Shown here in pieces: positions 58,801 through 64,000 of a DNA stretch of 64,000 nucleotides (the first letter of the stretch is position 1; every line of letters starts with the position of its first letter). The stretch comes from Escherichia coli. GTDB taxonomy: Bacteria > Pseudomonadota > Gammaproteobacteria > Enterobacterales > Enterobacteriaceae. The position numbers were made by a program. The DNA is taken from assembly GCF_009931435.1 (NCBI RefSeq), contig NZ_CP043414.1. The stretch is one strand, 5' to 3'.

Positions 58801-61800
58801 GCCCTTCAGAGACGGACTCGGACGTAAAAAGGTGTTTTGCCATATTTAATATCACCTAAAGAGAATTTGGTTAGCTCAAACTGTTGTGTGGATTTTCTGT
58901 GGTAGCGGATCCTACCACGACTCTGCAGGTTAAAAACACTGGCAGTCTGAGTGTTAATCGGTATGGATGGATTAACATCTGGATGGCTATTTTAGGTCAG
59001 TTCTTCACCCAATTTCCACTTTTTTTTGAATCGTGTCTCATTCTGTTAAAAACGTGGCTGGAAATTTTTCCTGACAATGCTGGCATTCTGCGTATTTATC
59101 TTTTGCAATTTTCTGCCATTGTGGGGTATAAAACGCGGCGCGCGGCTTAAATAAAAAGCACACGACGTTTCTTTCGTGTTGCCACTTCCAGCCGGGTTGA
59201 AATCAGAGTTTTGGCTTGTGGGTTCGTCTTAACAGGCGGCCGTGGAGGTGATACGAAATAATGAACCGTTGTCTGCTGCTTAACCTGTCTCACCGTTCTG
59301 GTGAAGATTCGTTCCCCGCACTCTGCATCTCTGCTTTGCATACCTGCCGATGTTATACCCATCTCGGCGCTTCTCAGGATTCAAGAGCTGGTTACAGTTA
59401 CTGAGGACTGAACAAGGGCGCTCTTGTAAAAACAAGAGTTTTCTCGTGGTTTCGCCGAACTGTCACACTTACGTTCGGTTATGTGTTTAATAATGTTATG
59501 AAAAAGAAACCGGTTGCGCAGTCGGAGCGTCAGCATACTTTGCTGGAAAATCCGTGTGCTTATGGGTTGTTATCGCAGTCCCAGGCTGCGATAGTCGTTA
59601 ACTGTTTTACACTTAATAAAATAATTTGAGGTTCGCTATGTCTGACGACATGTCTATGAGTTTGCCTTCGTCAGCGGGCGAACACGGTGTACTACGCTCC
59701 ATGCAGGAGGTTGCAATGAGCTCCCAGGAAGCCAGCAAGATGCTGCGTACTTACAATATTGCCTGGTGGGGCAATAACTATTATGACGTTAACGAGCTGG
59801 GCCACATTAGCGTGTGCCCGGACCCGGACGTCCCGGAAGCTCGCGTCGATCTCGCGCAGTTAGTGAAAACTCGTGAAGCACAGGGTCAGCGTCTGCCTGC
59901 ACTGTTCTGTTTCCCACAGATCCTGCAGCACCGTTTGCGTTCCATTAACGCCGCGTTCAAACGTGCGCGGGAATCCTACGGCTATAACGGCGATTACTTC
60001 CTCGTTTATCCGATCAAAGTTAACCAGCACCGCCGCGTGATTGAATCCCTGATTCATTCGGGCGAACCGCTGGGCCTGGAAGCCGGTTCCAAAGCTGAGT
60101 TGATGGCGGTACTGGCGCATGCTGGCATGACCCGTAGCGTCATCGTGTGCAATGGTTATAAAGACCGCGAATATATCCGCCTGGCATTAATTGGCGAGAA
60201 GATGGGCCATAAGGTCTATCTGGTCATTGAGAAGATGTCAGAAATCGCCATTGTGCTGGATGAAGCAGAACGTCTGAATGTCGTTCCTCGTCTGGGCGTG
60301 CGCGCGCGTCTGGCGTCTCAAGGTTCTGGCAAATGGCAGTCTTCTGGCGGGGAAAAATCGAAGTTCGGCCTGGCGGCGACTCAGGTACTGCAACTGGTTG
60401 AAACCCTGCGTGAAGCCGGACGTCTCGACAGCCTGCAACTGCTGCACTTCCACCTCGGTTCGCAGATGGCGAATATTCGCGATATCGCCACGGGCGTTCG
60501 TGAATCCGCGCGTTTCTATGTGGAACTGCACAAGCTGGGCGTCAATATTCAGTGCTTTGATGTCGGCGGCGGTCTGGGTGTGGACTATGAAGGTACTCGT
60601 TCGCAGTCCGACTGTTCAGTGAATTACGGCCTCAATGAATACGCCAACAACATCATTTGGGCGATTGGCGATGCGTGTGAAGAAAATGGTCTGCCGCATC
60701 CGACAGTAATCACCGAATCAGGTCGTGCGGTGACTGCGCATCACACCGTGCTGGTGTCGAATATCATCGGCGTGGAACGTAACGAATACACGGTGCCGAC
60801 CGCGCCAGCAGAAGACGCACCGCGCGCGCTGCAAAGCATGTGGGAAACCTGGCAGGAGATGCACGAACCGGGAACTCGCCGTTCTCTGCGTGAGTGGTTA
60901 CATGACAGCCAGATGGACTTGCACGATATTCATATCGGCTATTCTTCGGGCACCTACAACCTGCAAGAACGCGCGTGGGCTGAGCAGCTTTATCTGAGCA
61001 TGTGTCATGAAGTGCAAAAGCAGCTGGATCCGCAAAACCGCGCACATCGCCCGATTATCGACGAATTGCAGGAACGTATGGCGGACAAAATGTACGTCAA
61101 CTTCTCGCTGTTCCAGTCGATGCCGGACGCATGGGGGATCGACCAGTTGTTCCCGGTTCTGCCGCTGGCAGGGCTGAATCAAGTTCCGGAGCGGCGCGCC
61201 GTGCTGCTGGATATTACCTGTGACTCTGACGGTGCCATCGACCACTATATCGATGGTGATGGTATTGCCACGACAATGCCTATGCCGGAGTACGATCCAG
61301 AGAATCCGCCGATGCTCGGTTTCTTTATGGTCGGCGCATATCAGGAGATCCTCGGCAACATGCACAACCTGTTTGGTGATACCGAAGCGGTTGATGTGTT
61401 CGTCTTCCCTGATGGTAGCGTAGAAGTGGAACTGTCTGACGAAGGCGATACCGTGGCGGACATGCTGCAATATGTACAGCTCGATCCGAAAACGCTGTTA
61501 ACCCAGTTCCGTGATCAAGTGAAGAAAACCGATCTTGATGCTGAACTGCAACAACAGTTCCTGGAAGAGTTCGAGGCAGGTTTGTACGGTTATACCTATC
61601 TTGAAGATGAATAATTAAGATTATTCCGCTATCGGGTCGATTTATTTACGTAAATCGGCCCGCTTTCTTTTTATATATTCTTAAAAATAATTTAGCTGCT
61701 TTCCTTATTGAATAATCTCCCTACAATCGCTGCATTAATTAAATGCAGAGGGAACGGTTATGAAAAAATGGAAAGTACGTAGCGCGTTGGTGGCATTAGT

Positions 61801-64000
61801 CGTGCTGTTGGCCGGTTGTTCCAGTAATGCGCAGTATAATAGCAGTGCATCGGGCAATGTCGGCACCGCCTGGGGTGGGGATGTGCACTCAACGGTTCAG
61901 GGCGTATCTGCTGAACGAGCCTGGCGCGATCCGGCAGAGATGATCGTTATTAGTTATTCGACTAATGTTCCTTCCGGCTACGACCGCGTTTATAGCATTC
62001 GTATTAACGAACTTGAATATGCTATTCGCGATGGTAATTTTAATTCTCTACCTATTACGCGGGTTTATAATTCATCAGGTAAAGAACTACGCTATATAGT
62101 CCATGCCAGAGTAGGAATGAATTACCAATTATATGTCCGCAATTACAGTCGTAACACCAACTACGAGATCGTTGCGACAGTTGATGGCCTGGATGTTCTC
62201 AATGGTAAACAAGGTTCCCTGAATAACAACGGCTATATTGTGAATGCCGGGGATTCGTTGGCGATTAAAGGATTCCGCAAAGATAAACATACCGAAGCGG
62301 CTTTTCAGTTCGCCAACGTTGCGGATTCCTACGCAGCCAATTCGGCGCAAGGCGATGTGCGTAATACCGGTGTAATTGGCTTTGCAGCTTTCGAATTGCA
62401 AGGCCCGGCGCAAAACACGCTGCCGCCGTGCTCTGGACAAGCCTTCCCGGCAGATAACAATGGCTATGCGCCGCCACCGTGTCGGAAATAGTAACCTCGC
62501 TTGATGCCTCGCCCATTTAAGGCGATAATTAGCACAAAATTGTGTTTCGCAAATCCAACCCTTCCTCGTCGGGCCTAACGACGCGGAAGGGTTTTTTTAT
62601 ATCGACTTTGTAATAGGAGTCCACCCATGAGCACCTTAGGTCATCAATACGATAACTCACTGGTTTCCAACGCCTTTGGTTTTTTACGCCTGCCGATGAA
62701 CTTCCAGCCGTATGACAGCGATGCTGACTGGGTAATTACCGGCGTGCCGTTCGATATGGCCACTTCTGGTCGTGCGGGTGGACGCCACGGTCCAGCGGCG
62801 ATCCGTCAGGTTTCGACGAATCTGGCCTGGGAACACAACCGCTTCCCGTGGAATTTCGACATGCGCGAGCGTCTGAACGTGGTGGACTGTGGCGATCTGG
62901 TGTATGCCTTCGGCGATGCTCGTGAGATGAGCGAGAAGCTGCAGGCGCATGCTGAAAAGCTGCTGGCTGCCGGTAAGCGTATGCTCTCCTTCGGTGGTGA
63001 CCACTTTGTCACGCTGCCACTGCTGCGTGCTCATGCGAAGCATTTCGGCAAAATGGCGCTGGTACACTTTGACGCCCACACCGATACCTATGCGAACGGT
63101 TGTGAATTTGACCACGGCACTATGTTCTATACCGCGCCGAAAGAAGGTCTGATCGACCCGAATCACTCCGTACAGATTGGTATTCGTACCGAGTTTGATA
63201 AAGACAACGGCTTTACCGTACTGGACGCCTGCCAGGTGAACGATCGCAGCGTGGATGACGTTATCGCCCAGGTGAAACAGATTGTAGGTGATATGCCAGT
63301 TTACCTGACTTTTGATATCGACTGCCTGGATCCTGCTTTCGCGCCGGGCACCGGTACGCCGGTGATCGGCGGCCTGACCTCCGATCGCGCCATTAAACTG
63401 GTACGTGGCCTGAAAGATCTCAACATTGTTGGGATGGACGTAGTGGAAGTGGCTCCGGCATACGATCAGTCGGAAATCACCGCTCTGGCAGCAGCGACGC
63501 TGGCGCTGGAGATGCTGTATATTCAGGCGGCGAAAAAGGGCGAGTAATTCGCTAAATATTTCCCGGTGTGCATAGTCATGCCGGGAAACATTCATCAGTG
63601 CGATATATGTTTTTATATTTCTACGCGACTTTTTCTTAGCTCTGTTCACCTGCCTGGTTGTTTCAGAACATAAGTAATATTTAAAACACGAATATTCAGA
63701 AACCAGATTGTCACAAGGAATATTAATTCTTCCCGGTAGTTCTCATTCTTACGTTTACAAATAGTGTATGTTCTGAACAACTATTGTTTTTTAAGCGGTA
63801 AAGAAATGAGACGGATTGATGTTATTTGCAAGGAGCTGGAGCGACTGACGTATGGGCTGGAACTGTCTGATTTAGCGAAGGAGAAAGCATTTACTGCTGA
63901 GGCGATTGGTTTTAACCTTGGGCTGGCACGTAACTCGGTTAGTAAAGATCTTAATCAATTATGGAATGAAGGCCTGGTGGTAAAAAGTCAGGGACGTCCT

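What the first reader, a model, noticed from the sequence alone, without database searches (positions are those of the whole stretch)
61615..62626. Extra lipoprotein gene inserted between speA and speB
speA and speB form a polyamine operon; here they are separated by about 1 kb carrying a 243 aa lipoprotein ORF (LAGC lipobox, Asn/Tyr/Ser-rich, CxxQ...PPPC tail) with its own RBS and an AT-rich upstream stretch. I recall the K-12 speA–speB spacer as much shorter, so this looks like a strain-variable insertion of unknown function inside a housekeeping operon.
Basis: partly seen in the sequence, partly recalled or inferred. Interest (0 to 1): 0.45.

Follow-up and report, generated by a model that had tools for sequence, protein, structure and literature searches.

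The report
Old lipoprotein gene missing from K-12
The gene between speA and speB is a real, long-resident outer-membrane lipoprotein gene of unknown function, with its own transcription signals; about two thirds of E. coli and most related genera carry it, and the laboratory strain K-12 has lost it.

Summary
A 243-aa lipoprotein ORF (61760-62491, +) lies between speA (stop 61614) and speB (ATG 62627). The spacer is 1012 bp here and 137 bp in K-12.

The gene is strain-variable: 3543 of 5426 complete E. coli genomes carry it and 1867 have the K-12-type junction. It is not a recent insertion. It sits at the same site in other Escherichia species, Salmonella, Citrobacter, Klebsiella, Kluyvera, Kosakonia, Phytobacter and others. 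Its synonymous divergence equals that of speA and speB, and it is under purifying selection (dN/dS 0.04-0.08). K-12 is the derived state.

The gene is an independent unit. A covarying intrinsic terminator follows speA, and a conserved -10 element precedes the ORF. After the ORF come a conserved speB promoter and a strongly conserved hairpin with a U-tract.

The parts
59638..61614 (+). speA (biosynthetic arginine decarboxylase), the upstream neighbour
   Evidence: ORF list. RefSeq annotation of collinear loci. 99% amino-acid identity to E. coli SpeA.
61633..61672 (+). Intrinsic terminator after speA: a 13-bp stem, a 4-nt loop and the tail CTTTCTTTTT. This element is absent from K-12.
   Evidence: Terminator scan. 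Folding energy -18.4 kcal/mol, z -4.07. Across 10 genera 95% of cells are paired and 8 of 13 pairs show compensatory changes; 0 of 500 shuffles reach this.
61722..61727 (+). Putative -10 hexamer TACAAT of the lipoprotein gene's own promoter. The -35 element is weak or unclear.
   Evidence: T1, A2 and T6 of the hexamer are invariant in the 10-genus alignment, within an otherwise diverged AT-rich spacer. Inferred; no transcript data.
61730..61748 (+). Small 7-bp hairpin CTGCATT/AATGCAG just before the ribosome-binding site. It is seen in Escherichia only.
   Evidence: Folding energy -7.9 kcal/mol, z -2.5. Not conserved in other genera. Significance doubtful.
61748..61752 (+). Ribosome-binding site GAGGG, 7 nt before the ATG
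   Evidence: Read from the sequence. GGGA/AGG is conserved at this position across genera.
61760..62491 (+). Lipoprotein gene X, 243 aa. Residues 1-19 are the signal peptide. Cys20 (61817-61819) is the lipidated residue and Ser21 predicts outer-membrane sorting. A short linker is followed by two beta-sandwich domains (about residues 33-218). The conserved tail is AFPAD..GYAPPPC.
62501..62529 (+). Conserved sigma-70-type promoter TTGATG-17-GATAAT, read as the speB promoter. It also exists in K-12 as TTGAAT-17-GATAAT.
   Evidence: Promoter scan. cTtG and GATAAT are invariant in 11 sequences including K-12. GATAAT also appears in many of the distant Enterobacterales that lack X. The function is inferred.
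62557..62598 (+). Hairpin CCCTTCCTCGTCG/CGACGCGGAAGGG followed by U7. It would terminate gene X and also lies in the speB leader. K-12 retains it.
   Evidence: Inverted repeat I1. Folding energy -31.3 kcal/mol for the 95-nt leader, z -3.8. 88% of cells paired, with 4 pairs changed on both sides. 92-100% identical across genera.
62615..62619 (+). speB ribosome-binding site AGGAG
   Evidence: Read from the sequence.
62627..63547 (+). speB (agmatinase), the downstream neighbour
   Evidence: 100% amino-acid identity to E. coli SpeB.
61615..62549 (.). The 935-bp segment that K-12-type genomes lack. K-12 has 60 nt of non-matching sequence in its place.
   Evidence: Alignment A1, BLAST and local alignment compared with shuffles.

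Best explanation
X is an old, vertically inherited, independently transcribed gene for an outer-membrane-anchored periplasmic lipoprotein. It has occupied the speA-speB spacer since early in the history of Enterobacteriaceae.

Locus layout, partly shown and partly inferred. speA ends in its own intrinsic terminator. X is then read from its own promoter (conserved -10 element). X transcripts would stop at the hairpin with U7 in front of speB. speB has its own conserved promoter between the X stop codon and that hairpin. In X-carrying genomes, speA and speB are therefore neighbours rather than a tight operon. The sequence elements are shown; their activity is inferred.

K-12-type E. coli (34% of complete genomes) lost a 935-bp block holding the speA terminator, the X promoter, X and the speB promoter. 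In its place they carry 60 nt with an equivalent speB promoter.

Protein, inferred. A type II signal peptide and lipobox are followed by a short linker, which runs to about 140 disordered residues in some relatives. Then come two beta-sandwich domains and a conserved proline-rich tail. The conserved surface is rich in aromatic and charged residues (W38, R53, Y66, Y122, N128, E136, D142, Y159, R173, Y191). This suggests a binding module for an envelope component or an incoming enzyme, not a catalyst. I see no functional tie to polyamine synthesis. The gene is dispensable under laboratory conditions, as K-12 shows.
For: Presence and frequency.

Ancestral position. The order speA-X-speB is found in Escherichia whittamii, E. 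albertii, other Escherichia, Citrobacter, Kluyvera, Klebsiella, Intestinirhabdus, Phytobacter, Kosakonia, Entomohabitans and an Enterobacter sp. In Salmonella the order is speA-X followed by an island.

Vertical descent and constraint. dS for X between the window and O157 is 0.20, against 0.195 for speA and 0.22 for speB. dN/dS is 0.04-0.08.

No mobile-element signs: no flanking repeats and no tRNA gene.

Transcription signals.

Lipoprotein features.

Family size and spread.

Long disordered linkers and a circularly permuted relative.

No link to spe genes outside Enterobacteriaceae.
Against: - The proposed X promoter has no clear -35 element.
- The K-12 allele is not a clean deletion. Its 60 nt do not match the Escherichia X-carrying sequence, so the route of loss is unresolved.
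- More distant Enterobacterales and a few probable Enterobacteriaceae lack X at this site. Gain in an early ancestor and repeated loss cannot be fully separated.
- G+C at third codon positions is 47% in X and 61-62% in the flanks. This could be a trace of ancient foreign origin or of low expression.
- The binding role is an inference from fold and conservation only.
Confidence: 0.7

Rival explanations
1. Recent strain-specific insertion: X was inserted into an ancestral K-12-like speAB operon in some E. coli lineages.
For: K-12 and 1867 of 5426 genomes lack X. X has lower G+C (48.6%) and third-position G+C (47%) than its flanks. Distant Enterobacterales have the arrangement without X.
Against: X is at the identical site in at least 10 genera and in other Escherichia species. 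Its dS equals that of its flanks. There are no repeats, IS elements, integrase or tRNA genes. The spacer downstream of X in X-carrying genomes is the Escherichia-wide type, 94.7% identical in E. albertii, whereas the K-12 60 nt are the odd sequence.
Confidence: 0.05
2. X is a periplasmic inhibitor or immunity protein, for example against a lysozyme, a peptidoglycan hydrolase or a type VI secretion effector. It would be anchored to the outer membrane and kept as a stand-alone defensive gene.
For: It is a small beta-rich outer-membrane lipoprotein, stand-alone, patchily distributed and lost in some lineages. It evolves much faster than its neighbours: 53-77% amino-acid identity across genera, against 94-97% for SpeA. 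In Variovorax and Xenophilus it is followed by a signal-peptide protein with a weak Rap1a (PF18602) hit. In one metagenome contig it lies 260 bp after a VgrG-DcrB-PAAR-Rhs-immunity cluster.
Against: No profile match to any Pfam family at E<=10, which covers lysozyme-inhibitor and immunity families held in Pfam, and none to PADLOC. The Rap1a-like neighbour is confined to one family and the Rhs adjacency occurs once among roughly 95 loci. That Rhs already has its own immunity gene. There is no effector next to X in the window.
Confidence: 0.15
3. X is functionally tied to polyamine metabolism, for example as an envelope partner of SpeA or as an agmatine/putrescine-binding lipoprotein. That link would explain why it has stayed between speA and speB.
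For: The adjacency is stable across Enterobacteriaceae. A 44%-identical relative in Trabulsiella lies two genes from speG. The O157 proteome table labels SpeA 'PP' and periplasmic. From my own memory, older work placed SpeA in the cell envelope.
Against: X has its own terminator-bounded unit. Outside Enterobacteriaceae homologues are never next to spe genes; they lie in his operons or scattered contexts. K-12 lacks X, and, from established knowledge, still runs the SpeA/SpeB pathway normally. Salmonella separates X from speB by an unrelated island.
Confidence: 0.07

Closest known systems
K-12 speA-speB intergenic region (137 bp)
   Same: It shares the speB promoter architecture (TTGAAT-17-GATAAT) and an identical hairpin, U-tract and ribosome-binding site.
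   Different: It lacks the speA terminator, the X promoter and X. Its first 60 nt do not match the Escherichia sequence downstream of X.
Outer-membrane lipoprotein regulators with a flexible linker (LpoA/LpoB type)
   Same: A lipid anchor, a disordered linker of variable length (13 to about 140 residues across the family) and a compact globular domain. This is a resemblance in layout only.
   Different: No sequence or fold match to Lpo proteins in any search. No known partner.
Periplasmic or lipoprotein enzyme inhibitors and type VI immunity proteins (MliC/PliC, PliG, Rap1a and similar)
   Same: Small, beta-rich, envelope-located, stand-alone and patchily distributed. There is a weak neighbourhood hint in Comamonadaceae and in one metagenome contig.
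   Different: No profile match. About twice the size. No cognate effector nearby.
Fungal DUF7918 proteins and related uncharacterised proteins (AlphaFold database)
   Different: No Pfam HMM match at E<=10. They are eukaryotic, have no lipobox, and are themselves of unknown function.

Membership tests
Bacterial lipoproteins (type II signal peptide) | Positively charged N-terminus, hydrophobic core, and lipobox [LVI][ASTVI][GAS]C at the cleavage site | tested here: met
   MKKWKVRSALVALVVLLAG|C. Cys20 is invariant in 59 homologues.
Bacterial lipoproteins (type II signal peptide) | Outer-membrane sorting: the residue after the lipidated Cys is not Asp | tested here: met
   Ser21. The sorting rule comes from established knowledge of Lol sorting in E. 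coli.
Bacterial lipoproteins (type II signal peptide) | Actual lipidation and membrane location | not testable with these tools
   Needs globomycin sensitivity or palmitate labelling, plus membrane fractionation.
Any curated protein family (Pfam-A, NCBIfam, PADLOC, PDB sequences) | Significant profile match | tested here: not met
   No Pfam hit at E<=10 for the protein, and none at E<=0.001 for any of 59 relatives. NCBIfam gave only signal-peptide-level hits far below the cut-offs. PADLOC gave none. The best PDB profile hit had E = 1.
speAB operon member (co-transcribed, functionally linked gene) | No terminator and no separate promoter between the genes | tested here: not met
   A covarying terminator follows speA. 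A conserved -10 element precedes X and a conserved promoter precedes speB. This is sequence evidence only.
speAB operon member (co-transcribed, functionally linked gene) | Linkage to spe genes is kept wherever the family occurs | tested here: not met
   The linkage is confined to Enterobacteriaceae. Elsewhere the gene lies in his operons or varied contexts.
Recently acquired genomic islet or mobile element | Flanking repeats, an integrase or IS element, a tRNA target site, or divergence out of step with the flanks | tested here: not met
   No meaningful repeats. No tRNA gene. dS equals that of the flanks. The same site is occupied in at least 10 genera. Only third-position G+C is lower than in the flanks.
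Type VI secretion immunity proteins | Encoded next to a cognate effector | tested here: not met
   There is no effector next to X in the window. One Rhs adjacency occurs among roughly 95 loci, and that Rhs has its own immunity gene.
DUF7918 (Pfam, fungal) | Match to the family HMM | tested here: not met

The most novel reading that the evidence does not exclude
X founds a large, uncatalogued family of outer-membrane lipoproteins (about 4200 clusters at 50% identity across Proteobacteria and beyond). Its double beta-sandwich would act as a periplasmic binder or inhibitor of an envelope-active enzyme, in the manner of an immunity protein. It has escaped study because K-12 lost it. That loss may have been an allelic replacement imported from an enterobacterium without X, using the ultra-conserved speB leader hairpin as a recombination anchor.
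Probability: 0.15. Interest if true: 0.55.

Novelty: already known. Interest (0 to 1): 0.3.

Why it matters
This gene is a K-12 blind spot. A lipoprotein conserved across Enterobacteriaceae and present in most pathogenic and commensal E. coli has no name, no Pfam or NCBIfam family and, as far as I could search, no paper, probably because the laboratory strain lacks it.

Three practical points follow.
- The K-12 'speAB operon' is not the typical arrangement for the species. Transcription of speB in most strains has to be read with an extra terminator, an extra gene and a separate promoter in between.
- The family is a reasonable target for envelope biologists and for family curators.
- The conserved promoter and hairpin before speB may explain how speB is regulated.

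None of this is a new kind of system. The gene is already in public annotation.

Tried and rejected
- Profile and sequence searches for a named family all gave nothing: Pfam on the protein and on 59 relatives, NCBIfam, PADLOC and a PDB profile search.
- Rfam on 58500-64000 found no match.
- Guilt by association found no neighbour shared across families. I clustered all ORFs within 4 kb of X in about 80 loci. The Rap1a-like neighbour is confined to Variovorax and Xenophilus, and the Rhs adjacency is unique. The speG proximity occurs only in Trabulsiella.
- Truncated protein clusters (P0030, P0050) first looked like common pseudogenes. Most are partial sequences at contig ends, so I dropped that claim.
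- I looked for a deletion mechanism or a donor for the K-12 allele. The short direct repeats found do not fit the junction. No donor appeared among 45 metagenome loci that lack X. Divergence does not rise towards the junction.
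Full report
**1. The observation.** The window carries speA (59638-61614), a 243-codon ORF (61760-62491) and speB (62627-63547), all on the + strand.
- The speA-speB spacer is 1012 bp. In K-12 DH1 it is 137 bp and holds no gene.
- The ORF product starts MKKWKVRSALVALVVLLAG|CSS, a standard lipoprotein signal peptide and lipobox. Ser follows the lipidated Cys, which by the usual E. coli sorting rule means the outer membrane.
- The mature part is rich in Asn, Ser and Tyr. Its tail has the only two other cysteines (CSGQ...PPPC).
- A GAGGG ribosome-binding site lies 7 nt before the ATG, and the upstream 60 nt are 23% G+C.

**2. A real gene under constraint.**
- A word-indexed search found 287 homologues. 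An exhaustive profile search of 1.84 billion representative proteins found 4189 clusters at E<=1e-3 and 3256 at E<=1e-10.
- The exact protein is on record as 'hypothetical protein' or 'lipoprotein'.
- Among six Escherichia alleles dN/dS is 0.04-0.08.
- dS between the window and O157 is 0.20 for X, 0.195 for speA and 0.22 for speB. The gene has therefore shared its neighbours' history.

**3. Distribution in E. coli.**
- Of 5426 complete genomes, 3543 match at least 80% of a query spanning the gene.
- Another 1867 match the K-12-type junction, many at 100% identity.
- About 16 genomes have other arrangements.
- RefSeq calls the gene 'hypothetical protein', 'lipoprotein' or 'membrane protein'.

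**4. Direction of change.**
- The order speA-X-speB is found in E. whittamii, other Escherichia, Citrobacter, Kluyvera, Klebsiella, Intestinirhabdus, Phytobacter, Kosakonia, Entomohabitans and an Enterobacter sp.
- E. albertii shows X-speB on a contig that ends inside X.
- Salmonella has speA-X followed by a GntR/mannitol-dehydrogenase island.
- The spacer between X and speB is 94.7% identical between the window and E. albertii.
- No repeats, IS elements or tRNA genes flank the gene.
- Within Escherichia the X-carrying state is therefore ancestral and K-12 is derived.
- A pattern scan of metagenome contigs found the X-less junction in two further groups. One group has SpeA about 84-88% and SpeB about 80% identical to E. 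coli. The other is a few closer relatives with SpeA 94-96% identical. In both, the speA stop is followed within 43-70 nt by the same hairpin and then speB.
- X therefore probably entered this spacer once, early in Enterobacteriaceae, and has been lost several times since.

**5. Anatomy of the locus.**
- Nineteen nt after the speA stop lies a 13-bp hairpin followed by CTTTCTTTTT (61633-61672). Its folding energy is -18.4 kcal/mol, z -4.1.
- Across ten genera 95% of the hairpin's cells pair and 8 of 13 pairs carry compensatory changes. No shuffle and no slid register comes close. This is a conserved speA terminator.
- In the otherwise diverged AT-rich spacer, the T, A and final T of TACAAT (61722-61727) are invariant. 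I read this as the -10 element of X's own promoter. The -35 element is unclear.
- After the X stop codon, cTtG (62500-62503) and GATAAT (62524-62529), 17 nt apart, are invariant in 11 sequences including K-12. I read this as the speB promoter.
- Then comes the hairpin CCCTTCCTCGTCG/CGACGCGGAAGGG with U7 (62557-62598), followed by the speB ribosome-binding site.
- In X-carrying genomes, speA, X and speB therefore look like three units, not one operon. All of this is sequence inference.

**6. The K-12 allele.**
- K-12 lacks 61615-62549, which holds the speA terminator, the X promoter, X and the speB promoter. It carries 60 nt instead.
- Those 60 nt have the same promoter layout (TTGAAT-17-GATAAT) but are not significantly similar to the Escherichia X-carrying sequence: local alignment score 19, against 16.8 +/- 2.2 for shuffles.
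- The flanks are ordinary E. coli right up to the junction. The hairpin region is 100% identical. In the last 100 nt of speA the only differences from O157 are two K-12-specific changes, at -3 and -18.
- K-12 and O157 differ by about 1.5% in speA and about 3% in speB, against 0-0.5% further out, with no gradient towards the junction.
- A simple deletion does not explain this. An imported X-less allele, with crossovers in the speA 3' end and in the highly conserved hairpin, is possible. I found no donor. This point stays unexplained.

**7. The protein.**
- AlphaFold2 with a 59-sequence alignment gives a confident all-beta model (mean pLDDT 84.5, pTM 0.80). It has two sandwich-like halves and a less confident C-terminal tail.
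- Conserved blocks are LGTxWGE, YE(I/V)VATVDGLDVLNGKPGS, GFRK, AAFRF, YAAN, GVIGxAxFEL and AFPAD..YAPPP. Invariant polar and aromatic residues include W38, R53, Y66, Y122, N128, E136, D142, Y159, R173 and Y191.
- Relatives differ mainly in the length of a disordered Pro/Ala-rich linker after the lipobox, up to about 140 residues. One relative is circularly permuted, so the LGTxWGE segment and the second half behave as separable modules.
- No Pfam, NCBIfam, PADLOC or PDB sequence match exists.
- Foldseek against AFDB50 returns only unnamed lipoproteins. They come from Providencia, Proteus, Pseudomonas, Acinetobacter, Kingella, Moraxella, Ralstonia, Comamonas, Halomonas, myxobacteria and others.

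**8. Context elsewhere.**
- I clustered all ORFs within 4 kb of X in about 80 loci. No neighbour is shared beyond a single bacterial family.
- In Comamonadaceae the gene sits inside the his operon, between hisD and hisC. In Variovorax and Xenophilus it is followed by a signal-peptide protein with a weak Rap1a hit.
- In one metagenome contig it follows a VgrG-DcrB-PAAR-Rhs-immunity cluster.
- In Trabulsiella a 44%-identical relative lies between ynfD and ynfC, two genes from speG.
- These hints are too isolated to carry a functional claim.

**9. What it most likely does.**
- I commit to the following. X is an outer-membrane-anchored periplasmic binding protein acting on an envelope component or an incoming enzyme. 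It is unrelated to polyamine synthesis and dispensable in the laboratory.
- The locus-level statements (real gene, ancestral in Escherichia, own signals, lost in K-12) are well supported.
- The molecular role is inference from anchor, linker, fold and conserved surface.
- An inhibitor or immunity role is the most specific version, at about 0.15. A polyamine link is unlikely, at about 0.07. A recent insertion is essentially excluded.

**10. Novelty and score.**
- The gene is already in public annotation and is by definition among the O157 segments absent from K-12, so the finding itself is known.
- What is not known is its function. Neither Pfam-A nor NCBIfam has a model matching the family, although it is large.
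- A specialist would not be surprised that K-12 lacks a gene. The gap in knowledge about a widespread enterobacterial lipoprotein, and the non-operon anatomy of 'speAB', give it modest interest (0.3).

Noticed in passing
window 62501-62598 (also L001 3228-3324; L097-L141): A conserved promoter (TTGAxx-17-GATAAT) is followed by a nearly invariant hairpin CCCTTCCTCGTCGGG(CC/TT)TAACGACGCGGnGGGG with a run of U's, just before the speB ribosome-binding site. It is kept in Enterobacterales whose SpeB is only about 80% identical, while the surrounding spacer is fully diverged. The search pattern required the left arm, but not the loop or the right arm. Rfam has no match. A promoter, then a terminator, then the ORF looks like an attenuator-type leader for speB. 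From memory, agmatine induction of speB has no known mechanism.
   Followed up: partly
L001 3216-3275 versus window 61615-62549: The 60 nt after the speA stop in K-12 are not significantly similar to the Escherichia sequence they replace, yet the flanks are E. coli-like up to the junction. The allele without X may be an imported replacement rather than a deletion. A 68-nt variant (GTCCGTATTAC...) also exists (L116, L129).
   Followed up: partly
window 63548-64000: Downstream of speB the window does not continue into loiP as K-12, O157 and strain R32_14_1F do. An AT-rich spacer is followed by the start of a gene annotated dagR (about 63806 onwards, + strand, running off the window). This stretch is present in only 562 of 5426 complete E. 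coli genomes, so a second variable segment lies beside speB.
   Followed up: partly
window 58400-63547: The whole metK-speA-X-speB block is only about 96-97% identical to K-12 and O157 (dS about 0.2). It is 99.4% identical to goat strain R32_14_1F. The last 453 bp of the window are 100% identical to strain 2020CK-00188. The window therefore comes from an unusually divergent Escherichia lineage, or this block is a divergent recombinant segment.
   Followed up: partly
L009 6001-7205 and 22 other Comamonadaceae loci: In Variovorax, Acidovorax and Xenophilus the X homologue sits inside the histidine operon between hisD and hisC. In Variovorax and Xenophilus it is followed by a 122-aa signal-peptide protein with a weak Rap1a (type VI immunity) Pfam hit. 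This is a second case of the family lodged inside a housekeeping biosynthetic cluster.
   Followed up: partly
L015 5594-8498 (Trabulsiella guamensis): A 44%-identical relative of X lies between ynfD and ynfC, two genes from speG (spermidine acetyltransferase). This is a second proximity to a polyamine gene, but it is seen in one genus only.
   Followed up: yes
P0267 (300 aa, metagenomic): This family member is circularly permuted. The VDG/GIIG half comes first and the LGTxYGE segment follows a long linker, while the AFPD..YAPPP tail stays at the C-terminus.
   Followed up: no
L005 6886-12732 (Salmonella enterica): In Salmonella X is followed not by speB but by an island with a GntR-family regulator, a mannitol dehydrogenase, a zinc alcohol dehydrogenase, an Ldh_2 protein and a DUF386 protein. 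The X-speB spacer is thus an insertion site in that genus.
   Followed up: no
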